A DNA stretch of 64,000 nt from NCBI GenBank assembly GCA_902494875.1, contig CABUUO010000002.1, positions 32,547-96,546 of the forward strand, in the 5' to 3' direction. Within the stretch, counting starts at the first letter, position 1; each line of letters begins with the position of its first letter. This DNA comes from an uncultured Pseudomonadota bacterium. Its GTDB lineage: Bacteria; Pseudomonadota; Alphaproteobacteria; RF32; CAG-239. The position numbers were made by a program, and so were the translations under genes. The notes below the pieces were generated by a model. That model was not told the DNA's origin, ran no database searches, and was given only the letters and a program-made list of their open reading frames with translations. Of the stretch, positions 1-43,465 are shown in pieces.

Positions 1-1
1 C

Positions 2-316
2 GAAGAAAGCACTCCGCAAAACGGCGATGAGAACCTGGTTGAAGACCCGGTAGAAGATTGGCTTGCAGAAGAAGGCAAAACCCTGAAAACCCTGCTGACC
101 GAATGGAGCGACAAAGCCGGCTGGAGACTGATTTGGAACTCTAACCGCAATTATACATTGACTGCAGGCGCAATGTTCCGCGGACGCTTTGCCGACGTCA
201 GTTCAGCGCTGATCAGAGCTTTTGCAAGGGCGCGGCCGGCTCCGATTGCAACATTTTATAAAGGCAACCGCGTATTGGTTGTAGAGACACTGGAGGATGA
301 AAATGCATATGAATAA
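2..316 (+). CDS. C-terminal fragment of a pilus biogenesis protein encoded upstream of the secretin (PilM/TcpQ-like position)
   Basis: Reading frame 2 is open from the window edge to a TAA at 314-316 and overlaps the secretin start. The family assignment is by gene position only. Confidence 0.35.
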   Translation, partial: EESTPQNGDENLVEDPVEDWLAEEGKTLKTLLTEWSDKAGWRLIWNSNRNYTLTAGAMFRGRFADVSSALIRAFARARPAPIATFYKGNRVLVVETLEDENAYE

Positions 317-1919
317 TTATACCAAAGCGGTTTTGGGCTTTTTTGCCGCGGCAGCCATCGCCTCATGCTCCATGTCAACGCATCTGGACGCCGAAATTGA
401 ACGCGAAATCGAAACGGCGACCAAACTGAAAGAAGAATCAAAAGCTCCGGGAAAGCCGATTGCTGATGATATCGTACGGGTTAAGAACGACATCTGGCTC
501 GGAGACAAATCTCAAGTCGAATATGAAGGCGAACCCCTTCCCAGTTATCTGGAAGGCAAAGACGGCGTGACGCTTATCAGCAACAGGCCGATTACGCTGT
601 TTGAAATCGGTGACATGATTACCAAAATCACGTCCGTGGGCGTTCGTTATGCTTCTCATCTTGAGAAAGACATTCGCGACATGGCCAAGGAAAACAAGCC
701 GGATCCGGAAACGATTAATGCGGACTGGACCGAACCCGATAAAATGCTGGTTTCCTATAAAGGCCCTTTAAGCGGTTTGCTTGACGAAATTGCCACTCGG
801 TTCGGCATCTGGTGGAAGTATGAAAAAGGACAAATTTACTTCTACAAATATGAAAGCAGGACTTTCGTTCTCTACAGCTTGCCGACAAAACCCTCGCTCA
901 GCGTTTCCATGGGCGGAAGCTCCTCGGGCGAGAGCGGAAACGCGTCAACTACGCTTACCAGCCAGATTGACGTTGCTTTATGGGACAACATTGAAAAAGC
1001 CATTACATCCATGATCAGCGGCGATTCAAAGCTGACAATGGATCCGGCCAACGGAACGATTTCAGTTTTGGCGACACCGATCGAGGTTAAAAGAATTGCA
1101 AAATTCATCAACGAACAAAATGCAAGACTGTCCCGTCAGGTTGCCATCAGCGTAAAAGTCCTGCAGGTCACGGTTGCCGATTCAGACAAATACGGCCTGG
1201 ACATTGCCGCGGCGTTTAACGACGGCGTGACCAGCTTGGGCGTAGCCGGCGCATCCGGTTCGACCGGCGAAACGACCAATAACCTGCTGATGAGCATAGC
1301 CCCCGGCAACTGGAAAGTTGACAGCTTTATTCAGGCGCTGTCTACCAAAAACGATACGTCTTTGGTTACCAGCGGTACGGTTACGACGCTGAACAACAAG
1401 CCGGCGCCGATCCAGGTCACCAAAAAACAGAACTATATTTCCGAAATTACAAAAACAAACTCCGGCAGCAGCGACGGCAGCAGCGACTATGACATTTCAA
1501 CCACGACAGAAGAAATCGAAACGGGTTTCACGCTTGACGTTCTGCCGAGGATTCTGGAACACGGACGTTTGATGATGATGTTCAACCTGACTCTGTCAGA
1601 CCTGATTTCACTGGAGAAGGTTTATCTGACAACCAGCGAAAGCGGCGAAGCAGATTCAGGACAATACATTCAGAACCCGATTGTCGAAACCCGCGGCTTT
1701 ACGCAGGAAGTGGCGATGAAATCCGGTGAATCCCTGATTTTGAGCGGTTATGAACGCGTTGAAAGCAAAGCAGACAAAACCGGTGTCGGTTCGGCAGAAA
1801 ACTCTCTGCTCGGCGGAACGGCCAGCGCTGAAAAAACCAGAAGCATGCTGGTTATCATTTTGACGCCGGTGGTTTTGGAATCGCCGCTGACGCCGGAATC
1901 CAGAATGAAAACATACTAA
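297..1919 (+). CDS. Type IVb pilus secretin, lipoprotein (PilN of R64 / BfpB / TcpC family)
   Basis: N-terminal lipoprotein signal with lipobox (AAAIAS-C). C-terminal secretin-like region (VLATPIEVKRIAKFI...QVAISVKVLQV, Gly/Ser/Thr-rich beta-domain). It is the first gene of a pilus operon. Confidence 0.7.
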   Translation: MKMHMNNYTKAVLGFFAAAAIASCSMSTHLDAEIEREIETATKLKEESKAPGKPIADDIVRVKNDIWLGDKSQVEYEGEPLPSYLEGKDGVTLISNRPITLFEIGDMITKITSVGVRYASHLEKDIRDMAKENKPDPETINADWTEPDKMLVSYKGPLSGLLDEIATRFGIWWKYEKGQIYFYKYESRTFVLYSLPTKPSLSVSMGGSSSGESGNASTTLTSQIDVALWDNIEKAITSMISGDSKLTMDPANGTISVLATPIEVKRIAKFINEQNARLSRQVAISVKVLQVTVADSDKYGLDIAAAFNDGVTSLGVAGASGSTGETTNNLLMSIAPGNWKVDSFIQALSTKNDTSLVTSGTVTTLNNKPAPIQVTKKQNYISEITKTNSGSSDGSSDYDISTTTEEIETGFTLDVLPRILEHGRLMMMFNLTLSDLISLEKVYLTTSESGEADSGQYIQNPIVETRGFTQEVAMKSGESLILSGYERVESKADKTGVGSAENSLLGGTASAEKTRSMLVIILTPVVLESPLTPESRMKTY

Positions 1920-1939: not shown

Positions 1940-3220
1940 ATGGCGCTTGAAGATGCTAATTTGACAGACATTAATCCTGATGCAGAAGGGAAACGCACTT
2001 GGGGAACCAAAATAACGGTTGACGGCACCAGTTATGCCACCAGTCTGTTCTGGCAGCCCCTGCAAAATCAGGAAGATCCGTTTACGGAAGTCGGAGAAGC
2101 GTCCGAAGGTATTCTGGAAGGCGCCGATTTGTTTTGTATCAAGCCGGGCAAGGCACCGCAGTTTGGTATCTGCGTTTCTCACGAAGGTTATAAGAGCGGA
2201 GAAAACGTCGCCGCGGTTGCTTTGGCAACCGCGCTGTCCGACCGTTCGTCTTTTGTGGCAGTTTTTCAAACCGACAAAGGCTGGTGGTATACCTGCGTCA
2301 GAAACGACATTATCCTTTCTGACGGCGATATGCTGTTTTTAAACGAAGAAGACGCCAAAAACCAATTTATTTCGATGTTGGCCGTACCGGACTGGGGACG
2401 TAAAATTGCACCGGCGGCTTGGGGTATTGAAGAAACCGAGGATATTGAGCTGGAAAAATTGATGCAGCGCGGATTACACTCCAAACTGCAAAAGATCAAA
2501 GGGCTCCGCGGCGCCAAACTGCTGATGGTTATCGGCATTTCGGCAGTAGTTGTTTTCTGGCTTTTGTCTAATATTATTAACGCATTGTTTTTTACCCCCA
2601 AAAAGCGTCCGGTCATTGTTCCGGTTCAGCCTAAAATAATCAAGCCGGTAGTGGAAAAAGCGCCGGAGGTTAAACCTTGGGAACGCTTAAACGATCCGTC
2701 TCAGGTTATGAGCGGATGCATGGCAAAAATCGAACAGCTGGTCAGAATTATGCCGCCCGGATGGCAAATTGGCAACCTCAGCTGCACTCCGACCGGCGTA
2801 TCAACCAGTTGGAACAGACAAATCGGACGTTTGTCCTGGGTAAAAAAAGCTTTGGACGTGTCGGGAATTCAGTTTTCATATCGGACGTTTTCCGATACGG
2901 GCGACAGTATAGCGGCGGGCGTATCGTTGGGAAAAATCGTTCAGATTTCTTCACCGCCGATGAAAAGTCCGACGGAGCTTCGGGAGATGCTGAACGACTT
3001 TTTCCAAGGCATTAACCAAAACGTCGCTTTGAGCGACGGTTCTTATACATCGCCGGAAAAGAATATATATCGCTTTATCGGCTTTCGGTTTTCATCAACG
3101 TACAATCCGGAAGTATGGAGCGGCTTGTTAACAAAATTTTCAGGACTTGAGATTAAAGTTATAAATTATTCACCCAGTACAAATGTCTGGACCTACGAGG
3201 GGGCTATTTATGCATTATAA
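1940..3220 (+). CDS. Pilus assembly protein, PilO(R64)-like, single transmembrane segment
   Basis: 426 aa with one central hydrophobic helix (LLMVIGISAVVVFWLLSNIINALFF). Its size and position after the secretin match R64 PilO / Bfp assembly components. Confidence 0.4.
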   Translation: MALEDANLTDINPDAEGKRTWGTKITVDGTSYATSLFWQPLQNQEDPFTEVGEASEGILEGADLFCIKPGKAPQFGICVSHEGYKSGENVAAVALATALSDRSSFVAVFQTDKGWWYTCVRNDIILSDGDMLFLNEEDAKNQFISMLAVPDWGRKIAPAAWGIEETEDIELEKLMQRGLHSKLQKIKGLRGAKLLMVIGISAVVVFWLLSNIINALFFTPKKRPVIVPVQPKIIKPVVEKAPEVKPWERLNDPSQVMSGCMAKIEQLVRIMPPGWQIGNLSCTPTGVSTSWNRQIGRLSWVKKALDVSGIQFSYRTFSDTGDSIAAGVSLGKIVQISSPPMKSPTELREMLNDFFQGINQNVALSDGSYTSPEKNIYRFIGFRFSSTYNPEVWSGLLTKFSGLEIKVINYSPSTNVWTYEGAIYAL

Positions 3221-4619
3221 TATGAAAAAAATATTTGTGACAACGGCGCTGGCGTTAATATTCGGTTTAACCTGTTCCGGAAATGTTATGGCACAGGCTG
3301 CCATTTCTTTGTCTGATGATGCAAAAAAAGCCGACACCCAATCTGCTGCCAACGAGATTCCAGATGAAATATCTCTGTTTGGCGATGACGGCGACGATAT
3401 TCTGACACCGCCGGCGAAAACCGAACCAGAAACAGCGAAAACCGAAAATAAACCGGAAGCAGCCAAAGATGACAAACAGGCTCCGTCGGAAACGGCAGCT
3501 CCGGGTCTGCCGGTTTTAGACATGCCGGCACAGCCCGAAAACGTTGAAAAGCCGCAAATTCCGGCCATTCCCGTTATCCCGGCCCCGGCGGCACAACAGG
3601 CCCCCCAGCCCGCAGCCATTCCCGAACCCAAACAGCAGGTTCCGGTCTTCAGCCAGTTGGGCAGTCAGATTATTGAAGACATTGACGACGACGTCTTTGC
3701 CAAAATGTCTGATCTTGAAAAAGAAACGGCAGTTTTGAATTTGGAACTGCGCAAAGAAAAAGTCAAAAACGACATTGAGGCTCTGCGCGCCATGCGCGAC
3801 AAAGCCCAAGAAGAGGAAGAAGCGCGCAAACACGCCGAAAAGCTTAAACAAATCGCTCTTGAAAAAGAGGAAGAGCGAAAAATCCTTTTGGAACAGCAAA
3901 AGTTAAAAAATCTTGAAATCGTTTATGAAAAAGAACGTCAGGAAAAGCTGTTAAAGGCATATAAAAACAAAATGCTGGAAGAAAGCCAGAAGTGGATAGA
4001 ACGCAATGCCGAAAATTATAAAGAAATCGCGGACTTGAAAAATGAACGGCAAAAACTTATTAATGACTTTAAGGGCAAGTTTGTCCAACTGACCAAAATG
4101 GCCGATGAAGCAACAAACGAGGCAATCCGGGTACGGGATAATTATGCCAAGACAATATCAGATCTGCAAACTCAGATATCTATTCTCAATGCTCGTCTGG
4201 AAGCAAGCGAGAAAACCAATCCGTTTGCGGAAAACGGCGGAGAACAAGCGGCTCCGCTTGAGGAAGAAGAGGCCTTAAAGCTTAGTGATTTGTATGCCGT
4301 TATGGAAATTCGCGGCAAAGGAAAAAATTTGAGCGCAAAATTGATTAACGAGAGCGGAGCACCATTCTTTGTCAAAGTGGGTACCGTGTTGCAAAGCGGA
4401 CATGTTGTTGACGAAATATCCTCAACTTATGTCCGGGCCGACAAAGAGGGCAGCAAAGATTATCTTTATTTCTCGGCCGGCGGCGTTCTTGATCAGGAAC
4501 CGGTGACCAACGAGGAGTTGAAAGTAAAGGTTTCCGATCCGGAGCAAGCTCCGGCGCCGAGCGGTATTGTTTCAAACCAAGGGATTCCCGGAATTGCTAG
4601 AGAAATGACCGTCAGATAG
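3210..4619 (+). CDS. Secreted pilus assembly protein with Pro-rich linker and long coiled-coil (PilP-like C-terminal domain)
   Basis: Signal peptide MKKIFVTTALALIFGLTCSGNVMA, preceded by a GAGGGGG ribosome-binding site. It has a Pro/Ala/Gln-rich segment, a Glu/Lys-rich heptad region and a C-terminal beta-rich domain. Confidence 0.4.
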   Translation: MHYNMKKIFVTTALALIFGLTCSGNVMAQAAISLSDDAKKADTQSAANEIPDEISLFGDDGDDILTPPAKTEPETAKTENKPEAAKDDKQAPSETAAPGLPVLDMPAQPENVEKPQIPAIPVIPAPAAQQAPQPAAIPEPKQQVPVFSQLGSQIIEDIDDDVFAKMSDLEKETAVLNLELRKEKVKNDIEALRAMRDKAQEEEEARKHAEKLKQIALEKEEERKILLEQQKLKNLEIVYEKERQEKLLKAYKNKMLEESQKWIERNAENYKEIADLKNERQKLINDFKGKFVQLTKMADEATNEAIRVRDNYAKTISDLQTQISILNARLEASEKTNPFAENGGEQAAPLEEEEALKLSDLYAVMEIRGKGKNLSAKLINESGAPFFVKVGTVLQSGHVVDEISSTYVRADKEGSKDYLYFSAGGVLDQEPVTNEELKVKVSDPEQAPAPSGIVSNQGIPGIAREMTVR

Positions 4620-4621
4620 TC

Positions 4622-6310
4622 ATGGCAGATGAGATGGAAAACGAACCGGAAGAGAAAGAAGTCAAGGATAGTCAGGAAAAACCGGCCGACGGAGTACCCA
4701 GCGTAGCGGTTTCAACCGGTCCTGTTGCGGCTCCGATTACCCAGTCTTTAGGCAAGCTGGAACTTTATTTTGCCAACGGACGAAAATTGCTCACCGTTCC
4801 CGGCGGAACTCTTAATATCAATGATGACACGCGCCGGCTTCTGGCCTTGTTCTCTGACGGAAGTTTTTTGGTAGCCGAATCACATAAGTTCGACGGACGC
4901 GTTTTGAGCTTTGAAGTTTTGGCACGCAGGAAACGGATTAACATCTTAAAACCGGTCTATCTGTCTCAAAACGAGCTTAACGCCATTTACAACTATGCCG
5001 AAAGAAACGTTGCCGACGCCGATGCCGACGAAGATCTTGACGCATTGCAAATGCAGAAAGACTTTGTGAACGTTATTGCCCGGGCCGCGGAAAAAAAGGT
5101 GTCCGATATTCACGTTGTGGTGGCAGACAGCACGCAGATTATGTTTCGCGTCAACGGCATGATGTCCATTGAAATGGAATATAACAAAGACTGGGGCGAA
5201 TCTTTTGTCCGCGCGGCCTTTGCTTCGGCGGACATTTCGGACTCCAACTATGCGCAGAACGAATTTCAGGGCGCACAGAAGCTGGGGTCGACCCCTCTGC
5301 GCGGGTCTAAAGGCAAGCTGATGCTGCCGCATAACGTTTTGGCCATCCGCTTACAGTTTAATCCGATTGCGTTTGGTTCTCAATATTTGGTCATGCGTCT
5401 GTTGTATGCCGACGACAATCCTAACGGCAGCGGCGATTTGGCATCGTTAGGACTGGGCGAATATGAAGAGAAGCTGTTTTACCGTCTGAGAGCGGTTCCG
5501 ACCGGAGTCAGCATCGTTTCCGGTCCGACCGGTTCCGGAAAATCAACGACCCTGCAAAGAAACATGATTAAACTTTTGCAGGAAAAGAATTACGAAATTA
5601 ATCTGATTACGGTGGAAGATCCGCCGGAATATCCCATTCCCGGCGCCAGACAGATGCCGGTGACAAACGCCAATACTGAAGAAGAAAAAGATGAACAGTT
5701 CACCAAAGCGCTATCGGCGGCGCTGCGTTCCGACCCTGACGTCATGATGGTCGGTGAAATTCGTTCGCTTTCGGCTGCACAATTGACTTTTAAGGGCGCT
5801 TTGTCCGGACACGGTATGTGGACCACGCTGCACGCCAACTCAGCGCCGGCAATTATCCCCCGTCTGCGCGATATGGGCGTGGAGACATTTAAGCTCGGCG
5901 ACCCGGAGCTGGTTAAAGGATTAATCGGTCAGCGTCTGTTCAGAAAGCTCTGCCCGCATTGCCGCAAATCAGTCAAGGAAATGCTTGACGAACCGGCAGT
6001 ACAGCGTCTGAAAGTAGCTTTGGGCGATTTTGGCATTGAAAACACCTATGTACGCGGTCCCGGCTGTAAGTTCTGCGGAGGTTCCGGAATCAAAGGACGT
6101 ATGAGCGTGCCAGAGATTATTCTGCCGGATGCCATGTTTTTGGAACTGATCATTAAAGGCGAAACCCGTAAAGCCATTGACTACTGGACCAGCGATCTGG
6201 GCGGCAGAACGATGAAAGACGCGGCTATCGAAAGAATGCTGAAGGGATATATTGATCTTGACGAAGTAGAACGCTGGTGCGGACTGATGGACCAGCGCCC
6301 GGTTTATTAA
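4622..6310 (+). CDS. Type IV pilus assembly ATPase (GspE/PilB/BfpD/R64-PilQ family)
   Basis: Walker A motif GPTGSGKSTT and Asp-box/His-box region. It has a C-terminal tetracysteine motif (CPHCRK...CKFCGGSG), typical of secretion ATPases. Confidence 0.85.
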   Translation: MADEMENEPEEKEVKDSQEKPADGVPSVAVSTGPVAAPITQSLGKLELYFANGRKLLTVPGGTLNINDDTRRLLALFSDGSFLVAESHKFDGRVLSFEVLARRKRINILKPVYLSQNELNAIYNYAERNVADADADEDLDALQMQKDFVNVIARAAEKKVSDIHVVVADSTQIMFRVNGMMSIEMEYNKDWGESFVRAAFASADISDSNYAQNEFQGAQKLGSTPLRGSKGKLMLPHNVLAIRLQFNPIAFGSQYLVMRLLYADDNPNGSGDLASLGLGEYEEKLFYRLRAVPTGVSIVSGPTGSGKSTTLQRNMIKLLQEKNYEINLITVEDPPEYPIPGARQMPVTNANTEEEKDEQFTKALSAALRSDPDVMMVGEIRSLSAAQLTFKGALSGHGMWTTLHANSAPAIIPRLRDMGVETFKLGDPELVKGLIGQRLFRKLCPHCRKSVKEMLDEPAVQRLKVALGDFGIENTYVRGPGCKFCGGSGIKGRMSVPEIILPDAMFLELIIKGETRKAIDYWTSDLGGRTMKDAAIERMLKGYIDLDEVERWCGLMDQRPVY

Positions 6311-6326: not shown

Positions 6327-7460
6327 ATGGCAGGCGAACAGGAAAAAAGAAGCGCGTCCAATTCGATGCAAAAGGCTATGCGCAAGCTCAATACGGTTGA
6401 GGAATATTACGCTAAGCTGATTTGTAACTTTTCCAATGAAGCACGATTAAAACTCTATCGCAAAATCGCCTCGCTGATGAGAAACCGCTTTTCTCTGATG
6501 AGTGCTTTGGATATGCTTCATGACAGCGCCAGCGACGGCGGCAAAAGTCCGGGAGAACCGATGGCTATCGCCATTGCCTGCTGGGGTCGGGCGCTCAACA
6601 ACGGTTTGACGTTTTCCGACGCTCTGAAAGGCTGGGCTCCGGACCGTGAACGACTGATGCTGTCGGTCGGTGACGTCTCAGACCTGGAAGGCGCTCTGCT
6701 CAACCTTATTCGTGTTACCGAAGGTTCAACAAAGATGATCCGTCCGATTATCGGCGCAATTGCTTACCCGACCTTTTTGTTTTTGATGGCGGTTTTGATT
6801 ATTTACGGTATCGGCGTATATATGGTGCCGCCGATGTTGGATGCGGCGCCCGGCGTTCGTTGGCGAGGACTGGCAAAAGATCTGGTTGATGTTTCGGCCT
6901 GGATTCAACAATATTGGCTGGTTGCATTTTCAGCACTGCCGATCACAATGCTGGTCATCTACCTGACAATCGGACTCTGGACCGGACCTATCCGCGCCAT
7001 TGTCGATAATATGCCGCCTTATTCACTTTATAAGGTGTTCGTCGGCATCAGTTGGCTGCTGGCCTTGTCCGCACTGGTTAAGGGCGGTACGCCGGTATCA
7101 ACGGCGATGCGGGCCTTGAGGCGCGACGCGACCCGCTATTTGAAAGAAAGAATTGACAAGACGCTGGTCTTCATCAACAACGGTGACAACCTTGGTATTG
7201 CCCTGAAAAAAACCGGACTTGATTTTCCCGATAAGGAAGTTATTGCCGATTTAAAAATTTATTCGGAATTGGATAACTTTGAAGAAGCTCTGGAATCGCT
7301 GGCCAATCAATGGCTGGAGGAGTCCGTTTATCTGATTGAGCAGAAGGCGGCTTTGTTAAATATGGCGGCAATTCTAAGCGTCGGCGGCGTTATCGCCTGG
7401 GCCGTCATGGGCACCTTTGAAATGCAAGACCAAATTACCAGCAGTATGGGACAAGGCTGA
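6327..7460 (+). CDS. Pilus inner-membrane platform protein (GspF/PilC/BfpE/R64-PilR family)
   Basis: 377 aa polytopic membrane protein immediately after the ATPase. An AGGAG ribosome-binding site precedes it. Confidence 0.65.
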   Translation: MAGEQEKRSASNSMQKAMRKLNTVEEYYAKLICNFSNEARLKLYRKIASLMRNRFSLMSALDMLHDSASDGGKSPGEPMAIAIACWGRALNNGLTFSDALKGWAPDRERLMLSVGDVSDLEGALLNLIRVTEGSTKMIRPIIGAIAYPTFLFLMAVLIIYGIGVYMVPPMLDAAPGVRWRGLAKDLVDVSAWIQQYWLVAFSALPITMLVIYLTIGLWTGPIRAIVDNMPPYSLYKVFVGISWLLALSALVKGGTPVSTAMRALRRDATRYLKERIDKTLVFINNGDNLGIALKKTGLDFPDKEVIADLKIYSELDNFEEALESLANQWLEESVYLIEQKAALLNMAAILSVGGVIAWAVMGTFEMQDQITSSMGQG

Positions 7461-8047
7461 TGGAAAAGGCAAAAATAATTTTTAATAAAGCAATAAAAAT
7501 TTTTCATTCACCGGAAAGAATCGGCATTGCCGCGGCCGGAGCCGTTGTCATAATTGCCGCGGCAGCTTGGTTTTTGCTTAAAAGTCCGAAACCAGACGCC
7601 AATATTGTTACGGCCGGCAATCAAATCAGCCTGTTGACAGATAATGTACGAAAATTTTACCGTAATCGTCCCGATGCTTGGGGACTAAATACGCAATCTG
7701 TTTTGAAAAATGCAATTGCTCCCCAGGAAATGGTTCAAAACGGCAAATTGATTAACGCATTAGGAAAGGAAACCTTGGTCGGTGCGGATTCAAACGGCAC
7801 GACGGTTATGCCCGGCAGCAGAAATTTTGCCATTACTTTCAGAGGACTGGATTATGAAGAATGCGTTGAACTGTCCGCACTGGCTCCCGACGAAAAGACA
7901 GCATTGAGCCTTACTTCGGAAACGATTGCCAACGAGACAGAAACAATGTTTATCTGGGGCGGAGAACATCCGCTTCCGATAACAAGAAAAGCTGCGGAAG
8001 AATTCTGCAAACAACAAAATTCTCTCATTTGGAACATATTGTTATAG
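7460..8047 (+). CDS. Divergent pilin-like protein (minor pilin candidate)
   Basis: N-terminal hydrophobic helix. Its C-terminal region matches the pattern of the two downstream pilins (F-x-G-L-x-x-[DE]-x-C-V-x-L-[AS], with a second Cys near the C-terminus). Its start overlaps the platform gene's stop (TGATG). Confidence 0.4.
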   Translation: MEKAKIIFNKAIKIFHSPERIGIAAAGAVVIIAAAAWFLLKSPKPDANIVTAGNQISLLTDNVRKFYRNRPDAWGLNTQSVLKNAIAPQEMVQNGKLINALGKETLVGADSNGTTVMPGSRNFAITFRGLDYEECVELSALAPDEKTALSLTSETIANETETMFIWGGEHPLPITRKAAEEFCKQQNSLIWNILL

Positions 8048-8127
8048 TTTCTGTTTTACAGAATAAAGTTATATGTTTCAAAGCGTAATTATGACTAAAG
8101 ATAGGCTTATTTATCTTTTATTAATAA

Positions 8128-8142
8128 GTTATAGTTAAGATG
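8128..8142 (+). promoter_or_regulatory. Candidate -10 / conserved upstream motif gttataGttaAgatg for pilin gene 1
   Basis: Same 15-mer (2 mismatches) found upstream of pilin gene 2; contains TATAGT. Confidence 0.25.
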
Positions 8143-8183
8143 TGAGAAGAAAAAACTTTGAAGTGTGTTTTAGGAGAAAAGAG

Positions 8184-8798
8184 ATGAAGAGTTTATTCAA
8201 AAATGAGCAGAGCGGACGTTCCATGGTGGAAATGCTCGGCGTGCTCGCGATTATCGGCGTATTGTCGGTCGGCGGTATCTCCGGTTATTCGAAAGCCATG
8301 GCTAAATTTAAACTGACCAAGGCGCAAGACCAGTTGTCCATGATGATTATGAACATCAGAACCGCATTTGCAACCTCCCCTGGTTATCCGGGTTTAACAA
8401 CAAAAAATGCTATTGATTACAAGCTGGTATCTCAGGAAATGGTCGTTGCCGGAAGTACTTCGTTGATTAACGCATTTGGCGGCGATACGATTGTTGAAGC
8501 AATTAACGGAGCGGATGGTACTCCTAACGGTGCATTCCAGATTGTATTCTCCGGTCTCGGTAAAGATGTCTGCGTCAGCTTGGCTACCTCTGATTGGGGT
8601 ACTGACGGCTTAATTGGTATCGGCGTTGCCTCTACCAAAATCAGTAAAATTACAGGTACGCCGTCCGCTGCAGTTTCATTTGCAGGTGGCGGCAGTTTGA
8701 ACGGGCCTAAGGCTCTGCCGTTGTCTATTTCTGACGTTCGTAAGTCCAATGCCTGTGGTTCGGATAACACCAACTCGATTACCTGGGTTTATAACTAA
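8184..8798 (+). CDS. Type IV prepilin (major pilin candidate 1)
   Basis: Leader ...NEQSG followed by RSMVEMLGVLAIIGVLSVGG, with Glu at +5 after the predicted Gly cleavage site. An AGGAG ribosome-binding site precedes ATG 8184. An upstream in-frame GTG at 8142 is an alternative start. The C-terminus has a disulfide pair. Confidence 0.75.
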   Translation: MKSLFKNEQSGRSMVEMLGVLAIIGVLSVGGISGYSKAMAKFKLTKAQDQLSMMIMNIRTAFATSPGYPGLTTKNAIDYKLVSQEMVVAGSTSLINAFGGDTIVEAINGADGTPNGAFQIVFSGLGKDVCVSLATSDWGTDGLIGIGVASTKISKITGTPSAAVSFAGGGSLNGPKALPLSISDVRKSNACGSDNTNSITWVYN

Positions 8799-8824
8799 AG
8801 TTATAAGAGGCATAATTTTCTATA

Positions 8825-8856
8825 AAAAGGTGTGTTTTGACACACCTTTTTATTTT
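8825..8856 (+). terminator. Rho-independent terminator after pilin gene 1
   Basis: GC stem (ggtgtg...cacacc) followed by a T-run. Confidence 0.5.
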
Positions 8857-8874
8857 ACCCGAAATAAATCTATG

Positions 8875-8889
8875 TTATAATTAGGATGA
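8875..8889 (+). promoter_or_regulatory. Candidate -10 / conserved upstream motif gttataAttaGgatg for pilin gene 2
   Basis: Contains TATAAT. It is the paralogous motif to 8128-8142. Confidence 0.25.
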
Positions 8890-8915
8890 TATTATTTAAT
8901 TAAGAGGGGTCAAAA

Positions 8916-9503
8916 ATGAACAGAAACGAACAATCCGGAAGATCAATGGTTGAAATTCTCGGCGTTTTGGCCATTGTTGGTGTGCTTTCTGTCGGCGGTA
9001 TTGCCGGCTATTCAAAAGCGATGGCTAAATTTAAGCTGACAAAGGCACAAGACCAACTGCAGATGATGGTGATGAATATCCGCACGGCTTACGTCACTTC
9101 CCCGGGATTTCCGGATCTTAATACCGCGCATGTAATTGAATATAAACTGGCCTCCTCCGAAATGATGGTTGATTCAAAAAATCTGCTGAACGCCTTTGGC
9201 GGAAAGGTTTATGTTGAGGCAACCGAAAATCTGGAAAGAAATTCCGACGGCGCGTTTGCTATTCTTTATGCCGGTCTGGGGCGGGACTCTTGCGTCAGTC
9301 TGGCAACCTCCGACTGGGGTACGGACGGACTAATCGGGATTTACGTTGATTCGACGACCGACCCGATTAACAAGATCGAAAATCCTAACGCATTGTCCAA
9401 AGAACAACTCAAACAACCTTCAGAACTTCCCATTTCGCTGACAACGGCACGAGAAAAATGCAGTTCGGACAATAACAACCTTATAACCTGGTATTATCTT
9501 TAA
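8916..9503 (+). CDS. Type IV prepilin (pilin paralog 2)
   Basis: The N-terminal 60 aa are nearly identical to the upstream pilin (MNRNEQSGRSMVEILGVLAIVGVLSVGGIAGYSKAMAKFKLTKAQDQL). The C-terminal domain is diverged. Confidence 0.75.
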   Translation: MNRNEQSGRSMVEILGVLAIVGVLSVGGIAGYSKAMAKFKLTKAQDQLQMMVMNIRTAYVTSPGFPDLNTAHVIEYKLASSEMMVDSKNLLNAFGGKVYVEATENLERNSDGAFAILYAGLGRDSCVSLATSDWGTDGLIGIYVDSTTDPINKIENPNALSKEQLKQPSELPISLTTAREKCSSDNNNLITWYYL

Positions 9504-9510
9504 GACTGTA

Positions 9511-9538
9511 AAAGCACCGATTACGGTGCTTTTTTTAT
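9511..9538 (+). terminator. Rho-independent terminator after pilin gene 2
   Basis: agcaccg-atta-cggtgct followed by TTTTTTT. Confidence 0.6.
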
Positions 9539-9567
9539 GTCGTTCCGGTGCTTTCTTTTGTTCTGTT

Positions 9568-9745
9568 ATGCCGGACCTGATCCGGTATCCAGATCAAACA
9601 TTGATTCCTGCTTCCACTTGGACTCCGAGGCAAGCCCGGAGTGACCCAGCGTGGGCGTGCAGCGCATTATTTGTCATGTTTCGCTACGCTCAACATCCCA
9701 GCCGATTAACAAGGCTGAGGCCCTTCGACAAGCTCAGGGTGACAA
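9568..9745. repeat. Intergenic repeat element, copy A (resembles a small non-autonomous mobile element)
   Basis: Shares conserved blocks with 43268-43465: gccggacctgatccgg, tgacccagcgtgggcgtgc[ag]gcgcattatt, cagccgattaa, gctgag, ttcgaca, tcagggtgacaa. It starts with the palindrome ccggacctgatccgg. Confidence 0.6.
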
Positions 9746-9754
9746 CAAAGACAT

Positions 9755-11194
9755 CTAAAACAGACTATGTATGATTTTTACCATATCCGCCATTTCTATT
9801 TTTTGCGGCAAAGGGTTCACTTTTTGCGACTTGGAATAAACCAGCAGCGGAATATTCCGGTAGCCGAATTCTTCAACGCCGTGGTCTCCGTAAATGACAA
9901 ACAGCGAATCGTCCGGGCTGTTTTCGACCAGCCAACGCAATGACTGATCGACAAAGTTTACGGCATTGTAATAGTCATATTTCCGCTCCGGCGTTTTTGC
10001 AAACAGCGGACGCGGATTGTTTTTAACTTTATACTCGCTATGAGAACTGAGCGTAATGATAAAATTAAAAAGCTTATCATCCGAATGTTTTCGATTTTGT
10101 TTCAAGACAAAGTCAAACAGATCCCTGTCCGATATTCCCCAAAAATCGTCAGGATACCTGTCTTTCATATCCTCGTAGAAATAAATATCTTCATATTGCT
10201 GAGCTCTGACATGAGGACCGCGGTTGAAAAAGTCGGATTTAAAATTATGATAGAAACTCGTATGATATCCATTTGCTTTGGCTTTTTGCGACAGAGATTC
10301 CAAACGCGGCCAAACTTCCTTCGGAAGAAACATATGATAGATGATGGTAAACTCTTTTTCGGTAAAACCGCCGCTGTTCACAAAAAAATCGGTATTGGCA
10401 GAGGCGCCGTGAACCTTCTGGTTGACTTCGGCAAGCGTGCCTTCGGCGGCAAGACCGTTTAGAAACGGCGTCAATTCCCGTCCGTCAACTTTTTTATTGA
10501 TAACGTTATATGTCAGGCTCTCGGTTTGAATGACATAAATATGCCGACTTCCGGGGAAGCTGTATTTTATTTGCGGTTCACTTTCAGACAATTCAATAAT
10601 TTCATCTAAAATTTTACCGCTGCGTTTGCTTATTACCGTCTCATAAAGCCAGCAGGAGCGATAGCCGAAATTGAGGCAGGCATCATTAAAGAAACTCTGA
10701 GAAAAAAACAATATGGATACCGAGGCAAAGCTCGCATATATCAGCAAAGCCAGCGGAATAAGAAAAATCCAGAAAAAACGGCGATATTCTCTCAATATCG
10801 GATAGCAGCGGTTATAAAGCCCAAAATTGCCAAGACCGACAAGCAAAACTATCAAACTTTTATAATTTAAAACCGCTCCCGGAACCTTACTTAAAAACTC
10901 CGCCCCTTCACGATACTGAAACCAGATAATCGACAAAGACAGCGGCGGAACAAAATAGTTATGATACAGCAGCAGTCCCGAAGTTAAGACTATCTGAAAA
11001 GCTAGGGCCAGCCAGACCAAAATCCGGGGAAGAAAAAACAATATGCCCCAGAAACACATTCCGAAGATTAAAATAAAAAATCCGGCGGACATTATGTCCA
11101 AATCTGGAAAATACAATTTATTGGCTACAACGCCTTCCACACCCATCAAAAGTGCCAAAAGCAATATAAAAATGAACTTTTTATTATCTTTCAT
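9755..11194 (-). CDS. Membrane-anchored sulfatase-family transferase (LtaS / phosphoethanolamine- or phosphoglycerol-transferase-like)
   Basis: N-terminal domain with about 5 transmembrane helices. The C-terminal domain is alkaline-phosphatase/sulfatase-like (…LSSHSEYK…, VIYGDHG). It sits between the pilin genes and the PilT-like ATPase. Confidence 0.6.
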   Translation of the reverse strand: MKDNKKFIFILLLALLMGVEGVVANKLYFPDLDIMSAGFFILIFGMCFWGILFFLPRILVWLALAFQIVLTSGLLLYHNYFVPPLSLSIIWFQYREGAEFLSKVPGAVLNYKSLIVLLVGLGNFGLYNRCYPILREYRRFFWIFLIPLALLIYASFASVSILFFSQSFFNDACLNFGYRSCWLYETVISKRSGKILDEIIELSESEPQIKYSFPGSRHIYVIQTESLTYNVINKKVDGRELTPFLNGLAAEGTLAEVNQKVHGASANTDFFVNSGGFTEKEFTIIYHMFLPKEVWPRLESLSQKAKANGYHTSFYHNFKSDFFNRGPHVRAQQYEDIYFYEDMKDRYPDDFWGISDRDLFDFVLKQNRKHSDDKLFNFIITLSSHSEYKVKNNPRPLFAKTPERKYDYYNAVNFVDQSLRWLVENSPDDSLFVIYGDHGVEEFGYRNIPLLVYSKSQKVNPLPQKIEMADMVKIIHSLF

Positions 11195-11244: not shown

Positions 11245-12252
11245 TTGAAAAAGATTGTACAGTTTATTTACAGAAAGTGTGATTATATGGTTAAACTAAA
11301 CAGTATCCGGTTTTCTGACATCTATATTACGCCGGACAAAACCTGCTTTATTCCCGACGGCGTGACCCAGAACGGTCTGGCCATTATCAAACCCGAAGAT
11401 TTTGACGTTTTTTATAATTTGATTGAGGAATCTTGGGACGGAGAAAATCCCAGCTATTCGGTACTGTATGAAAACATATTTTACCGCGTTGAACGCACCG
11501 TAGCCATTTACGGCGTTCAATACTGCGCCCGAAAGATGCCCGAGAAAGTGCCGCCGCTGGCGGCTCTTAACTTTCCGCGCGAACTGTGCCGTCATCTGCT
11601 TTCGCTCAGTTCGGCCAGCGGCCTGATTTTATGGTCAGGACCGACCGGCGCAGGAAAAACGACTTCCATCTCCGGACTGCTGAAAGAATATCTGACCATG
11701 GAAGGCGGTTTTGCCTATACTATCGAAGACCCAACCGAAATGCCTTTGGACGGCATTTACAAATCAATGAAAGGCGGCTTGGGACTTTGTAAACAAACCC
11801 AGCCGGTTAACGGCAACTGGGGTGCTTCGCTGAAGTCTGCCCTGCGTTCAAAACCACGTTTCATTTTCGTCGGCGAAATCCGCACGCCGGATACGGCCAG
11901 CGAAGTTCTGCGCGCCGCAACTTCAGGCCATCTGGTTTTATCGACCATCCACGCCAACAACATTGCCGACGCCATTAACTCGGTAGTTAAATATGCCTCT
12001 TCCACGACCATGAGCGAAGAACTGGCCTATGACCTGTTTTCACGCGGCATTCTCGGCGTAATGCACCAAACGCTGATCGGCGTTCATGACAAAAGACCGG
12101 CAATCAATTATCTATTTGCCAATCCGGATACGACCAAGGGCGACCAAGTCCGCGGCATTATCAAAGGCGGCAATCTCAATCTCGGAACATCCATTGAAAC
12201 GCAGATGACCAGAATGCGCAAAGGAATGAGCCTGTTTCCCGACTTGTCTTAA
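11245..12252 (+). CDS. PilT/PilU-like pilus retraction ATPase
   Basis: 335 aa with Walker A motif SGPTGAGKTTS and the conserved Asp/His boxes of PilT-class ATPases. An alternative start is at 11287. Confidence 0.7.
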   Translation: MKKIVQFIYRKCDYMVKLNSIRFSDIYITPDKTCFIPDGVTQNGLAIIKPEDFDVFYNLIEESWDGENPSYSVLYENIFYRVERTVAIYGVQYCARKMPEKVPPLAALNFPRELCRHLLSLSSASGLILWSGPTGAGKTTSISGLLKEYLTMEGGFAYTIEDPTEMPLDGIYKSMKGGLGLCKQTQPVNGNWGASLKSALRSKPRFIFVGEIRTPDTASEVLRAATSGHLVLSTIHANNIADAINSVVKYASSTTMSEELAYDLFSRGILGVMHQTLIGVHDKRPAINYLFANPDTTKGDQVRGIIKGGNLNLGTSIETQMTRMRKGMSLFPDLS

Positions 12253-13325: not shown

Positions 13326-13478
13326 ATGAAAAAAGGCCTGATGATGAAAAAAATAATGCGATATATGCTGGCAGCCGTTGTAATTTCGACAATTTTTGCA
13401 ATTACGGCCTGCGGAAAAGTTTCCGGCGCAGTTCCGATTGAAGGCAGCGGCTATCCGCATACATATCCCCGCCGATAA
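13326..13478 (+). CDS. Small lipoprotein (50 aa) upstream of the vWA gene
   Basis: MKKGLMMKKIMRYMLAAVVISTIFAITACGK... with a lipobox. It is not in the ORF track because it is under 60 aa. Confidence 0.3.
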   Translation: MKKGLMMKKIMRYMLAAVVISTIFAITACGKVSGAVPIEGSGYPHTYPRR

Positions 13479-13497
13479 GACTTTTGAGGAGCGTAAT

Positions 13498-14190
13498 ATG
13501 GTTTCTGCCGACGATAATTTTATTGATGAGATGATTCCTTATGTGGAATTTGCCGATAACGCCAACGAACGGACTCCGTGCGTGCTGGTTTTGGACTGTT
13601 CGGGCTCAATGCGCGGCGAACCGATTAAACAGCTCAATGCCGGACTGAAAGCTCTGGAAAAGGAACTCAAAGAAGACATCGACGCCAGTTCGAGAGTGCA
13701 GCTCCTGATTATCAAAGCTTTCGGCAAAGATGAGGCTGTGGTCTCTTCCGACTGGATTGACGCCATGAACTTTACGGCTCCGACCATGGAAGCAGGCGGA
13801 CTGACCCCGCTCGGCAAAGCCATGGAGCTGGCATTGCAAAAGATTGAAGAACAAAAATGCCTGTATGACAGCTGCGGCATTACGTCTAAACGGCCGTGGA
13901 TTTTTCTTATCAGCGACGGAGAACCGACCGATTATGACTGGGAGATCATTGCTGAAAAATGCCGTTATGCCCAGCAGAACAAAAAGGTGGTCGTCCATGC
14001 CGTAGGCACGCAAGGCGCCAACCTTGAAAAACTGGCCAAATTTTCGATTATGTCGCCCAAACGTCTGACCGGACTGAAATTTACCGAATTTTTCCTCTGG
14101 CTCAGCCGCAGCGTTTCCTGCATATCCAAAGCGGCTCCGAATGTTCCGGATTTATTAGAAGATACTGGCGACTGGGATGAAGACAAATAA
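13498..14190 (+). CDS. von Willebrand factor A domain protein (YegL-like)
   Basis: Metal-binding motif DCSGSM, typical of vWA. The start was chosen at MVSADD because a GAGGAG ribosome-binding site lies 7 nt upstream. About 230 aa. Confidence 0.75.
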   Translation: MVSADDNFIDEMIPYVEFADNANERTPCVLVLDCSGSMRGEPIKQLNAGLKALEKELKEDIDASSRVQLLIIKAFGKDEAVVSSDWIDAMNFTAPTMEAGGLTPLGKAMELALQKIEEQKCLYDSCGITSKRPWIFLISDGEPTDYDWEIIAEKCRYAQQNKKVVVHAVGTQGANLEKLAKFSIMSPKRLTGLKFTEFFLWLSRSVSCISKAAPNVPDLLEDTGDWDEDK

Positions 14191-14920
14191 AATCAAAGTA
14201 ATTGCCTCAAGCATCCGCGGGCCTCTGCACATAAACAAGGGCCTGCCTTGTCAGGACTGCTTTCGTTATTCCCGCGGCGGAAAAAATTTCGTCGCGGTGG
14301 TTTCCGATGGTGCAGGTTCGGCAAAATTCGGCAGAAACGGTGCAAAAATCGTTTGCGAAACCCTGATTGACCTGCTGAAAAACGCTCCGTTTTCCGATGC
14401 TAAAAAACATATTCGGAAAGCCATAGGCATTGCACGGGAAAAACTGGAAAGGCACCGTTTCAACAAGACCAAAGACGAAAAGGGAATCATGGATTTTTCG
14501 GCAACCGTGGTCGGTGTCATCTGCAATAAGAATCAGGGCCTGTTTTTCCATATCGGCGACGGTGCGGCACTGGCTTTTCGGGACGGGGAATATGAAAGAT
14601 TTACCGCTTCTCCTCCCGAAAACGGCAATTTTTCATGCGAAACCTATTTTTATACCCAGCCTGACTGGGAAAGAAATCTGCGCTTTACGGCTTTTGAAAA
14701 CGCCGATACCGTTTTTCTGATGAGCGACGGGCTGACCAATTTTTCCTTTGCACAGGATTACCAAAGCATTGAAAAAGGATTTATTCTGCCGATTAACAAG
14801 TTTTTGAACGAAACCGGCAGCAAGCCCAAGGCTGAAAGAGCCTTGGCCAATACGCTGAACAACGCGGAAGCCAGAAGGCTGAATTCTGATGACAAGACTC
14901 TTTTATGGGCGAGGCTATAA
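14177..14920 (+). CDS. PP2C-family Ser/Thr phosphatase (YegK/PphC-like)
   Basis: PCQDCF..., VVSDGAGS, MSDGL are PP2C metal-binding motifs. The gene overlaps the vWA gene by 14 nt. Confidence 0.7.
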   Translation: MKTNKIKVIASSIRGPLHINKGLPCQDCFRYSRGGKNFVAVVSDGAGSAKFGRNGAKIVCETLIDLLKNAPFSDAKKHIRKAIGIAREKLERHRFNKTKDEKGIMDFSATVVGVICNKNQGLFFHIGDGAALAFRDGEYERFTASPPENGNFSCETYFYTQPDWERNLRFTAFENADTVFLMSDGLTNFSFAQDYQSIEKGFILPINKFLNETGSKPKAERALANTLNNAEARRLNSDDKTLLWARL

Positions 14921-14922
14921 TC

Positions 14923-43267: not shown

Positions 43268-43465
43268 GATGCCGGACCTGATCCGGCATGACCCAGCGTG
43301 GGCGTGCGGCGCATTATTTTCATGTTGAGCGGAACGAAGTGCAGTCGAAACATCTCAGCCGATTAATATTGCTGAGATGGAGTTCGACAACTACGTTGCT
43401 CACTCACTTCGTTGCTTCACTTCGTTCAGGATGACAGTTTACGTTTGACGGGTTCAGGGTGACAA
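43268..43465. repeat. Intergenic repeat element, copy B (resembles a small non-autonomous mobile element)
   Basis: The same conserved blocks as copy A at 9568-9745. It has an internal cacttcgttgcttcacttcgttc mini-tandem. Confidence 0.6.

What the first reader, a model, noticed from the sequence alone, without database searches (positions are those of the whole stretch)
7460..9503. Two tandem pilin genes with near-identical leader and N-terminal 60 aa but divergent C-terminal domains, plus a third leaderless pilin-like paralog
The proteins from 8184 and 8916 share NEQSGRSMVE(M/I)LGVLAI(I/V)GVLSVGGI(S/A)GYSKAMAKFKLTKAQDQL(S/Q)MM(I/V)MNIRTA almost exactly, with the E+5 signature after the predicted cleavage at ...SG. 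Their surface-exposed C-terminal halves differ, although the F-x-G-L-G-[KR]-D-x-C-V-S-L-A-T-S-D-W-G-T-D-G-L-I-G-I core is conserved. Each has its own TATAAT-like upstream motif (gttata[ag]tta[ag]gatg) and its own terminator. This suggests alternative or phase-variable major subunits, or a major and a minor pilin generated by duplication. The gene at 7460 has the same C-terminal cysteine pattern but a different N-terminus.
Basis: seen in the sequence. Interest (0 to 1): 0.5.

Follow-up and report, generated by a model that had tools for sequence, protein, structure and literature searches.

The report
Tandem type IVb pilin gene pair
Two old, intact, separately transcribed copies of the main pilus subunit gene sit at the end of a type IVb pilus operon in an uncultured gut alphaproteobacterium; this is ordinary for pilus loci, and the third "leaderless" gene is a conserved membrane-anchored pilin-fold protein, not a decayed copy.

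Summary
Genes 8184-8798 (pilA, 204 aa) and 8916-9503 (pilB, 195 aa) are 62% identical prepilins with G|RSMVE signals. Both pass the Pfam PilS cut-off. The pilA model matches only type IVb major pilins (TcpA, CofA, PilS). They end a chromosomal R64/Tfp7-like operon: TcpQ, PilN, PilO2, PilP-like, ATPase, platform, then a PilT-like ATPase.

The near-identical N-terminus is not evidence of recent duplication or recombination. Synonymous sites are saturated there (pS 0.74), the longest shared DNA stretch is 14 nt, and the same N-terminus is nearly invariant across the family. The A/B pair is orthologous in three lineages (bootstrap 100), and both copies are under purifying selection. Relatives carry 1-4 tandem pilins. 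Each window gene has a predicted promoter and a strong terminator. I found no inversion repeats, recombinase or silent cassettes, so phase variation is unsupported.

Verdict: a new member of a known kind, of modest interest.

The parts
1..296 (+). 3' end of a TcpQ-family gene, the first recognisable gene of the pilus operon; cut by the window edge
   Evidence: Inferred from synteny with L019, L009, L010 and L011, where a PF10671 TcpQ gene directly precedes the secretin. Not translated in the window itself.
297..1919 (+). PilN-type type IVb secretin (540 aa)
   Evidence: Pfam Secretin, E 6e-16. NCBIfam TIGR02520 PilN family scores 272.7 bits, just under its 287.65 cut-off.
1940..3220 (+). PilO2-type accessory protein (426 aa)
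   Evidence: Pfam PF06864 PAP_PilO, 37.1 bits, above the 26.7 cut-off.
3183..4619 (+). Signal peptide, low-complexity and coiled-coil region, then a PilP-like C-terminal domain (478 aa)
   Evidence: Weak TIGR03021 pilP_fam match, E 9.5e-4, below cut-off. Sequence read. Same position in all related loci.
4622..6310 (+). Assembly ATPase of the PilQ/GspE/PilB class (562 aa)
   Evidence: Pfam T2SSE, E 8.6e-65. 35.8% identical to the corresponding ATPase of an E. coli type IVb pilus plasmid.
6327..7460 (+). Inner-membrane platform protein of the PilR/GspF/PilC class (377 aa)
   Evidence: Pfam T2SSF, E 1.6e-23, two domains.
7460..8047 (+). It has a basic N-terminus, a membrane helix at residues ~18-40, a KSPKPD linker and a pilin head with C135/C183. 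Its ATG overlaps the pilR stop (ATGA).
8090..8135 (+). Predicted pilA promoter region: conserved box TATGACTAAAGATAGG (8090-8105), weak -35 TTATTT (8107-8112), -10 TATAGT (8130-8135)
   Evidence: The box, the -35 ((A)TTGTT in relatives) and TATAGT align upstream of most first-position pilin genes in the related loci. It did not reach the consensus scan threshold. Prediction only.
8184..8798 (+). pilA: type IVb prepilin, 204 aa. Leader MKSLFKNEQSG, predicted cleavage G11|R12, Glu at +5, C130/C191.
   Evidence: Pfam PilS 34.7 bits and Bundlin 30.1 bits, both above cut-off. AF2 pLDDT 84.6. The 16 best Foldseek matches are all type IVb major pilins, TM up to 0.67-0.71 to TcpA in the filament. hhalign to R64 PilS: 94%, E 1e-7.
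8822..8853 (+). Intrinsic terminator of pilA (14-bp perfect stem, 4-nt loop, T tract)
   Evidence: -16.8 kcal/mol, z -6.3, none of 200 shuffles folds as well.
8854..8881 (+). Predicted pilB promoter: TTTACC, 16-nt spacer, TATAAT with an upstream TG
   Evidence: 10 of 12 consensus matches, the best + strand site in 7300-9800.
8916..9503 (+). pilB: type IVb prepilin, 195 aa. Leader MNRNEQSG, predicted cleavage G8|R9, Glu at +5, C126/C182.
   Evidence: Pfam PilS 36.8 bits, above cut-off; Bundlin 22.3 bits, at cut-off. 62% identical to pilA. Orthologues occupy the second position in L001, L012, L014 and L019.
9510..9533 (+). Intrinsic terminator of pilB
   Evidence: -16.7 kcal/mol, z -3.5.
9755..11194 (-). 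Polytopic membrane protein with a sulfatase-superfamily (LtaS/LtaP-like) domain, 479 aa. Possibly pilus-associated.
   Evidence: Pfam Sulfatase, E 3.5e-17. Best PDB sequence matches are lipoteichoic acid primase and synthases. It sits next to the pilin genes in the window, L001, L003, L004, L010, L012 and L019. Any role on pilin is inferred only.
11245..12252 (+). PilT-like (retraction-type) ATPase, 335 aa
   Evidence: Pfam T2SSE, E 5.6e-28; TIGR01420 pilT_fam, E 3e-30, below cut-off. Syntenic in relatives.

Best explanation
pilA (8184-8798) and pilB (8916-9503) are two functional, major-type subunit genes of one chromosomal type IVb pilus. The pilus machine is of the R64 thin-pilus / Burkholderia Tfp7 kind, in an uncultured gut alphaproteobacterium. 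They come from an old tandem duplication that has been kept as an orthologous A/B pair.

Shown:
- Both have a class III signal and pass the Pfam PilS (type IVb pilin) cut-off. The modelled pilA has a type IVb pilin fold; pilB was not modelled.
- Both are under purifying selection.
- The shared N-terminus is the helix conserved across the whole family.
- Their differences lie mainly in the beta1-beta2 loop and in the region between the two cysteines.

Predicted: each gene is its own transcription unit, with a sigma-70-type promoter and an intrinsic terminator.

Inferred mechanism:
- A prepilin peptidase encoded elsewhere cleaves both after Gly.
- The PilQ/PilR motor polymerises them through the PilN secretin, and the PilT-like ATPase retracts the fibre.
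- Separate promoters would let the cell mix the two subunits in one fibre or switch between them. Either would change the pilus surface (adhesion, antigenicity, phage receptor) by regulation, not by DNA rearrangement.
- Copy number of 1-4 in relatives points to birth-and-death evolution of subunit genes.

The gene at 7460-8047 is a separate conserved component. It is a pilin head on an uncleavable membrane anchor and is translationally coupled to pilR. It most likely stays in the inner membrane as part of the assembly base (inferred).
For: Identity and fold.

Operon context. The organisation matches B. pseudomallei Tfp7, which has tcpQ2, pilN2, O2, P2, Q2, R2, S2, M2, V2, a separate pilT2 and no peptidase in the operon (PMC3984277).

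Old duplication: pS 0.77 overall and 0.74 in the first 65 codons. 28 of 52 identical-residue codons differ. The longest shared DNA is 14 nt.

Family-wide N-terminus.

Orthologous A/B pair: position-2 genes of the window, L012 and L014 form a clade with bootstrap 100/100. The window's A and B never group together (0/100).

Purifying selection:
- pilA against its L012 orthologue: dN/dS 0.10.
- pilB against its L012 orthologue: pN 0.08 with pS saturated.
- Against L001: 0 amino-acid changes with 7 synonymous in pilA, and 2 with 23 in pilB.

Transcription signals.

Copy number across loci:
- 1 in L003, L004, L006, L007 and L010.
- 1 plus an anchored derivative in L011.
- 2 in the window, L001, L012, L014 and L019.
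- 3 in L009.
- 4 in L002.

The 7460 family.
Against: There are no expression or protein data, so whether both subunits are made, and whether they co-polymerise or alternate, is unknown.

No prepilin peptidase (Peptidase_A24) is encoded in the 64-kb window. Processing is therefore assumed.

The pilA promoter is weak by consensus and was not picked up by the scan.

The Pfam N_methyl motif scores below its cut-off for both proteins, 15.6 and 12.7 bits against 21.2.

Leaders of 8-11 residues are short for type IVb pilins.

No PilV/TcpB-like minor pilin is visible in the operon, so the machine may work differently from its models.
Confidence: 0.72

Rival explanations
1. pilB is a low-abundance (minor) pilin that primes or caps a fibre built of pilA. 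It would fill the role of the PilV/TcpB/CofB-type minor pilin that is missing from the operon.
For: No other class III signal protein is encoded in the window or in the related operons. The pilB helix departs from the family consensus at several positions (I, V, A, Q, V), while pilA matches it. The B clade sits on longer branches.
Against: pilB is the same size and has the same cysteine pair as pilA, with no extra domain; CofB and TcpB chains are 496 and 390 residues and R64 PilV is about 474 aa. pilB has the strongest promoter match in the region and its own terminator. Many relatives with a single pilin have no B-type gene at all, so B cannot be an essential primer for this machine.
Confidence: 0.15
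2. The pair is a phase- or antigenic-variation system. Recombination between the conserved 5' regions swaps or converts the variable 3' halves.
For: The two genes are in tandem direct orientation and share a conserved 5' half. In L002, two of the four copies encode 100% identical proteins, so conversion or recent duplication does happen somewhere in the family.
Against: Within the window the 5' halves are only 74% identical in DNA, and the longest exact match is 14 nt. Synonymous sites are saturated. The A/B pair is stably orthologous across three lineages. There are no inverted repeats flanking a promoter or gene, no recombinase, no promoterless cassettes and no repeat tracts (Pfam).
Confidence: 0.03
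3. One copy is a non-functional relic, or the duplication is an assembly artefact.
For: None specific. pilA has only a weak promoter by consensus.
Against: Both reading frames are intact, with ribosome-binding sites. Both evolve under strong purifying selection. The pair is present in at least five independent assemblies. A collapse artefact would merge copies rather than produce two genes that are 62% identical.
Confidence: 0.03
4. pilA and pilB build two different fibres from the same machine, in the way Thermus thermophilus makes wide and narrow pili, each with a distinct function.
For: They are independent transcription units. The long-term retention of two diverged lineages fits subfunctionalisation. 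The precedent is in PMC7203116.
Against: The two helices are almost identical and the heads share 53% identity, so co-assembly is structurally plausible. Only one assembly ATPase, one platform and one secretin are present. Nothing here discriminates this reading from mixed fibres; it is a variant of the best explanation rather than a contradiction.
Confidence: 0.2

Closest known systems
R64 thin pilus and its chromosomal relatives (S. Typhi pil, P. aeruginosa PAPI-1, B. pseudomallei Tfp7)
   Same: Both have a PilN-type secretin, PilO2 (PF06864), a PilP-like protein, a PilQ ATPase, a PilR platform and a PilS-family pilin. As in Tfp7, there is a TcpQ gene instead of pilL, a separate pilT-like ATPase and no prepilin peptidase in the operon.
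   Different: This locus has no PilV adhesin, no shufflon/Rci and no lytic transglycosylase. It has no sequence-detectable PilM (hhalign 0.2%). It carries two pilin genes instead of one. Its leaders are short (8-11 aa, against about 23 in R64 PilS as read). It lies next to housekeeping genes on a chromosome of an uncultured alphaproteobacterium.
Type IVb major pilins TcpA, CofA, bundlin and S. Typhi PilS
   Same: The predicted fold of pilA matches them (Foldseek E 1e-7 to 2e-5, TM up to 0.7). Pfam PilS and Bundlin both hit. Mature size is about 190 aa, there is a two-cysteine C-terminal region, and the first mature residue is not Phe.
   Different: Sequence identity is only 15-20%. The first mature residue is Arg. 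The leader is short.
Systems with several major pilins: Streptococcus sanguinis PilA1-3 (PMC11121087) and Thermus thermophilus PilA4/PilA5 (PMC7203116)
   Same: More than one major-type pilin gene serves one organism's type IV pilus machinery. Function is modulated by which subunit is used (abstracts seen).
   Different: Those are type IVa-like systems in unrelated phyla, and there the evidence is experimental. Here use of both subunits is inferred.
R64-type PilM (PDB 3eoi), as a comparison for the 7460-8047 product
Neisseria pilE/pilS antigenic variation and Moraxella pilin inversion
   Same: Multiple pilin-related sequences are clustered, with conserved 5' and variable 3' parts.
   Different: Those systems need silent promoterless cassettes or invertible segments plus recombination functions (my own knowledge). 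None of these is present here.

Membership tests
Type IV pilin (class III signal peptide protein): pilA and pilB | Short charged leader ending in Gly(-1), Glu at +5, then a hydrophobic helix of about 20 residues | tested here: met
   The sequences read ...NEQSG|RSMVE(M/I)LGVLAI(I/V)GVLSVGGI. G11, E16 and the helix are invariant or nearly so in 57 homologues.
Type IV pilin (class III signal peptide protein): pilA and pilB | Match to Pfam N_methyl (PF07963) above its gathering score | tested here: not met
   15.6 and 12.7 bits, against a cut-off of 21.2. The motif is atypical (G|RSMVE, not G|FTLIE).
Type IV pilin (class III signal peptide protein): pilA and pilB | Cleavage and N-methylation by a prepilin peptidase (Peptidase_A24) | not testable with these tools
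   No A24 peptidase was found among the window ORFs scanned. It is presumably encoded elsewhere, as in Tfp7 and PAPI-1 (PMC3984277).
Type IVb pilin (PilS / bundlin / TcpA class): pilA and pilB | Sequence match to PF08805 (PilS) or PF05307 (Bundlin) above cut-off | tested here: met
   PilS scores 34.7 and 36.8 bits (cut-off 22). Bundlin scores 30.1 and 22.3 bits (cut-off 22.3).
Type IVb pilin (PilS / bundlin / TcpA class): pilA and pilB | Type IVb head fold with a C-terminal region bounded by two cysteines | tested here: met
   The AF2 model of pilA has pLDDT 84.6. Its 16 best PDB matches are all type IVb major pilins. C130 and C191 are invariant. pilB itself was not modelled; this is inferred from 62% identity.
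Type IVb pilin (PilS / bundlin / TcpA class): pilA and pilB | Long leader peptide (about 13-30 residues; my own knowledge of the class) | tested here: not met
   The leaders are 11 and 8 residues from the ATGs that carry ribosome-binding sites. Only the unlikely GTG 8142 start would give 25.
R64-type type IVb pilus machinery | PilN secretin, PilO2, PilP, PilQ ATPase and PilR platform encoded together with the pilin | tested here: met
   PilN scores 272.7 bits, just below its 287.65 cut-off, and the PilP match is weak (E 9.5e-4).
R64-type type IVb pilus machinery | PilV tip adhesin with a shufflon, PilU peptidase, PilT lytic transglycosylase, PilL and PilM | tested here: not met
   None was detected in the window or the related operons. 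TcpQ stands in for PilL, as in Tfp7.
Type IV pilin: product of 7460-8047 | Class III signal (Gly-1, Glu+5) allowing cleavage and polymerisation | tested here: not met
   There is no Gly at the equivalent position. The Glu is present only in close strains. None of the roughly 98 best family representatives shows the motif; all have a basic N-terminus followed by a membrane helix.
Type IV pilin: product of 7460-8047 | Pilin head fold homologous to PilS-family pilins | tested here: met
R64 PilM family (PF07419): product of 7460-8047 | Sequence similarity to PilM | tested here: not met
Pilin phase or antigenic variation system | Invertible segment with inverted repeats and a recombinase, or silent cassettes with long identical tracts, or slippage-prone repeats | tested here: not met
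   The only inverted repeats are the terminator and an AT-rich palindrome. The longest identity between the copies is 14 nt. No recombinase was found in the window (Pfam). No further pilin-like cassettes were found.

The most novel reading that the evidence does not exclude
The 7460-8047 family may be an undescribed core component of a large, unstudied lineage of type IVb pili in gut and rumen Alphaproteobacteria. It is a pilin that has exchanged its cleavable signal and polymerisation helix for a plain membrane anchor. As a non-extractable 'pilin mimic' it could sit at the base of the fibre and prime, anchor or terminate assembly. That would replace the large tip-located minor pilin (PilV/TcpB/CofB) that these operons lack. 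A second, independent loss of the signal in a downstream pilin copy (L011 10647-11210) would suggest that this conversion recurs.
Probability: 0.25. Interest if true: 0.55.

Novelty: new member of a known kind. Interest (0 to 1): 0.3.

Why it matters
Tandem major-pilin paralogues are a familiar way to diversify a pilus surface, so the pair itself changes little. Three things give it some value.

First, it documents a very abundant PilS-like pilin family (7374 database hits at E ≤ 0.001). The machine is an R64/Tfp7-type type IVb pilus in uncultured gut Alphaproteobacteria. Type IVb pili were long described mainly in Gammaproteobacteria (PMC6668835).

Second, it gives a clean worked example that N-terminal identity between pilin paralogues reflects protein-level constraint, not recombination.

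Third, it exposes a conserved, fast-evolving, membrane-anchored pilin-fold protein in an operon without a recognisable minor pilin. That protein is a concrete target for anyone studying how type IVb pili start and anchor assembly.

Tried and rejected
- Recent duplication or gene conversion: rejected on synonymous saturation and a 14-nt maximum shared stretch.
- Phase variation: the repeat search found only the terminator and an AT-rich palindrome, and no recombinase was found (and the Pfam).
- A search of all six frames of the window and loci for further class III signal proteins found only the known pilins.
- A Pfam scan of about 50 window ORFs for a prepilin peptidase found none.
- The 7460 product as R64 PilM: no sequence relation, only a modest fold match.
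- The 478-aa product of 3183-4619 and the 579-aa protein upstream of TcpQ in L019 as hidden minor pilins: both lack a class III signal.
- The word-indexed homologue search found only 8 relatives of the 7460 product. The exhaustive profile search was needed.
- The afdb50 fold library was unavailable.
- R64 under accession AP005147 and the paper PMC139557 were not held.
- Literature searches for this lineage's pili returned nothing relevant.

Full report
**What is there.**
The window comes from the chromosome of an uncultured gut alphaproteobacterium. The closest public contig is CALXRQ010000002 (L001), a 'MAG: uncultured Alphaproteobacteria bacterium'. The rest of the window is housekeeping: tRNAs, rpsB/tsf, gyrB/parE-type topoisomerase subunit, dnaK and dnaJ.

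The finding lies at the 3' end of a + strand pilus operon:
- the end of a TcpQ-family gene (1-296, by synteny);
- a PilN-type secretin (297-1919);
- PilO2 (1940-3220);
- a PilP-like protein (3183-4619);
- an assembly ATPase (4622-6310);
- a platform protein (6327-7460);
- the 7460-8047 gene;
- the two pilin genes;
- an LtaS-like membrane protein on the opposite strand (9755-11194);
- a PilT-like ATPase (11245-12252).

This is the organisation described for the R64-variant type IVb pilus Tfp7 of Burkholderia pseudomallei. Tfp7 has tcpQ2, pilN2, O2, P2, Q2, R2, S2, M2 and V2, with pilT2 apart and no peptidase in the operon (PMC3984277).

**Checking the observation.**
- The two products are 62% identical (E 7e-84), and the quoted N-terminal string is exact.
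- The first 60 aligned residues are 87% identical, and the rest 53%.
- The 15-nt upstream motif occurs only at 8128 and 8874 in the 64 kb.
- Both terminators fold strongly: -16.8 kcal/mol (z -6.3) and -16.7 kcal/mol (z -3.5).
- The 7460 product aligns with both pilins (E 2e-13 and 4e-11) and keeps the two cysteines.
- The correct pilA start is ATG 8184, with AGGAG at 8172-8176. The longer GTG 8142 ORF is not the right start.
- The pair recurs in independent assemblies (L001, L012, L014, L019), so it is not an artefact.

**What the two genes are.**
- Both pass the Pfam PilS gathering score, and both reach the Bundlin cut-off (pilB exactly at it).
- Both carry G|RSMVE followed by a hydrophobic helix. 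The predicted leaders are 11 and 8 residues, with Arg at +1 and Glu at +5.
- An AlphaFold model of pilA (pLDDT 84.6) finds only type IVb major pilins among its 16 best PDB matches. These include TcpA in the filament (TM 0.67-0.71), CofA and S. Typhi PilS.
- A profile of the family aligns with R64 PilS (94%, E 1e-7).
- The family is very large, with 7374 database proteins at E ≤ 0.001.
- Deviations from the textbook type IVb class are the short leaders, the Arg at +1, and an N_methyl score below cut-off.

**Why the N-termini are alike.**
The likeness exists at the protein level only.
- In the first ~65 codons the proportion of synonymous differences is 0.74, which is saturated. Over the whole gene it is 0.77.
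- 28 of 52 identical-residue codons use different codons.
- The longest exact DNA stretch shared by the two genes is 14 nt.
- The same N-terminus, GRSMVEMLGVLAIIGVLSVGGISGYSKAMAKFKLT, is found almost unchanged in relatives that are only 48-68% identical overall. These positions are invariant or nearly so in 57 homologues.
- pilB in fact departs from this consensus more than distant orthologues of pilA do.

The conserved 5' half is therefore the usual constraint on the polymerisation helix. It is not a recombination substrate.

**Age and fate of the duplication.**
- In a neighbour-joining tree, the second-position genes of the window, L012 and L014 form one clade (bootstrap 100/100).
- The first-position genes fall in another group, with the single-copy genes of L003 and L004 (94/100).
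- The window's two genes never pair (0/100).
- Both lineages are under purifying selection. pilA against its L012 orthologue gives dN/dS 0.10. pilB against its L012 orthologue gives pN 0.08 with pS saturated. Against L001 there are 0 and 2 amino-acid changes beside 7 and 23 synonymous ones.
- Copy number varies among relatives: one (L003, L004, L006, L007, L010), two (window, L001, L012, L014, L019), three (L009) and four (L002). The expansions in L002 and L009 are lineage-specific (90/100 and 98/100).

This is birth-and-death evolution of subunit genes, and the A/B pair is a stable product of it.

**Expression signals.**
- pilB has the best sigma-70-type match in the region: TTTACC, 16 nt, TATAAT with an upstream TG, 10 of 12. 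It lies directly after the pilA terminator.
- The pilA promoter is weak by consensus. However, its TATAGT, a -35 region ((A)TTGTT in relatives) and an upstream box (ATGACTAAAG) align upstream of most first-position pilin genes in the related loci. That is a phylogenetic footprint.
- No terminator follows the 7460 gene, so operon read-through into pilA is also possible.
- All of this is prediction.

**Phase variation.**
I found nothing to support it. The only inverted repeats are the terminator and an AT-rich palindrome. There are no further pilin cassettes. None of the ORFs scanned in the window is a recombinase.

**The third gene.**
The 7460-8047 product is not a decayed copy.
- Its ATG overlaps the pilR stop codon.
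- A homologue occupies the same place in all 13 related loci that include the platform gene, at 30-39% identity in the more distant of the first eight.
- An exhaustive profile search of 1.84 billion representatives found 542 hits. The roughly 98 best all have a basic N-terminus and a membrane helix and none has a class III signal. True pilins appear only from about E 1e-16 onwards.
- The Glu that seems to align with Glu+5 is present only in the closest strains, and there is no Gly-1.
- Profile-profile comparison with the co-resident pilin family gives 99.4%, E 2e-21 over the head.
- The family evolves fast. Between the window and L001, dN is 0.067, against 0.005-0.009 for the ATPase and platform genes.
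- No PilV/TcpB-type minor pilin is encoded in these operons.

My inference is that the protein stays in the inner membrane as part of the assembly base. A priming or anchoring role is possible but untested.

**Comparison and verdict.**
- As a working model, this is a retractile type IVb pilus of the R64/Tfp7 kind with two interchangeable or co-assembling major subunits.
- As membership, the pilins meet the class III and PilS/bundlin criteria. They fail the long-leader and N_methyl criteria.
- The machine lacks PilV, the shufflon, PilU and a sequence-detectable PilM.
- Several major pilins serving one organism's pilus machinery are known from Streptococcus sanguinis and Thermus thermophilus (PMC11121087 and PMC7203116).
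- The pair is a new member of a known kind.
- The anchored pilin-fold protein is the only part that could be more than that.

Noticed in passing
window 8055-9238, compared with L001: Between the window and strain L001 the operon differs at about 9% of bases (dS about 0.5 in pilQ and pilR). A 1.18-kb tract covering the pilA promoter, pilA and the 5' half of pilB differs at only 14 sites (1.2%; pilA dS 0.05). There is a sharp change at about 9239, inside pilB: 5 differences in 323 nt before it and 21 in 265 nt after it, p 2e-4. This looks like a recently exchanged segment, though very strong codon constraint is not excluded.
   Followed up: partly
window 9755-11194 (- strand): A 479-aa polytopic protein with an LtaS/LtaP-like glycerol-phosphate-transferase-type domain lies between the pilins and the pilT-like gene. 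It is found there in the window, L001, L003, L004, L012 and L019, and on the + strand in L010. It is absent in L009 and L011 and evolves fast (34-37% identity where the ATPase is about 90%). It could be a pilin phospho-form transferase like the Neisseria PptB activity that adds phosphoglycerol to pilin (PMC10948894). No test was done.
   Followed up: partly
window 9540-9750 and 43269-43376; L001 11411-11500: A GC-rich (54% against 47% for the window) intergenic element lies downstream of pilB. It has a partial copy (75% over 95 nt) elsewhere in the window, and it is present in the opposite orientation at the same site in L001. It may be a small mobile repeat.
   Followed up: no
L011 10647-11210: In a related genome the gene in the second pilin position encodes a pilin-like head (ending ...IIWMFY) behind an ordinary membrane helix instead of the class III signal. 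This appears to be a second, independent conversion of a pilin into an anchored form.
   Followed up: partly
L002 10774-11400 and 12324-12950: Two of the four tandem pilin genes in this relative encode 100% identical proteins although their upstream flanks differ. This indicates very recent duplication or gene conversion within that array.
   Followed up: partly
L019 1-53 (- strand), upstream of the operon in a near-identical strain: A TrbC/VirB2-family (PF04956) gene lies just upstream of the 579-aa membrane protein and TcpQ. The pilus operon may therefore border a type IV secretion or conjugation cluster, which recalls the R64 thin pilus.
   Followed up: no
window 13396-16386: A VWA-domain protein, a PP2C phosphatase and a Ser/Thr kinase form a triad that stays syntenic downstream of the pilus locus in L009 and L019.
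   Followed up: no
window 54203-58891 and 58903-60900: Two large adjacent ORFs (1562 and 665 aa) have no meaningful Pfam match.
   Followed up: no
window 3183-4619 and 7460-8047, compared with L001: The PilP-like protein and the anchored pilin-fold protein are each only 88% identical between the two strains, while neighbouring machine proteins are 97-99% identical. Mismatches in the anchored protein's gene cluster at 7566-7621 and 7748-7952.
   Followed up: partly
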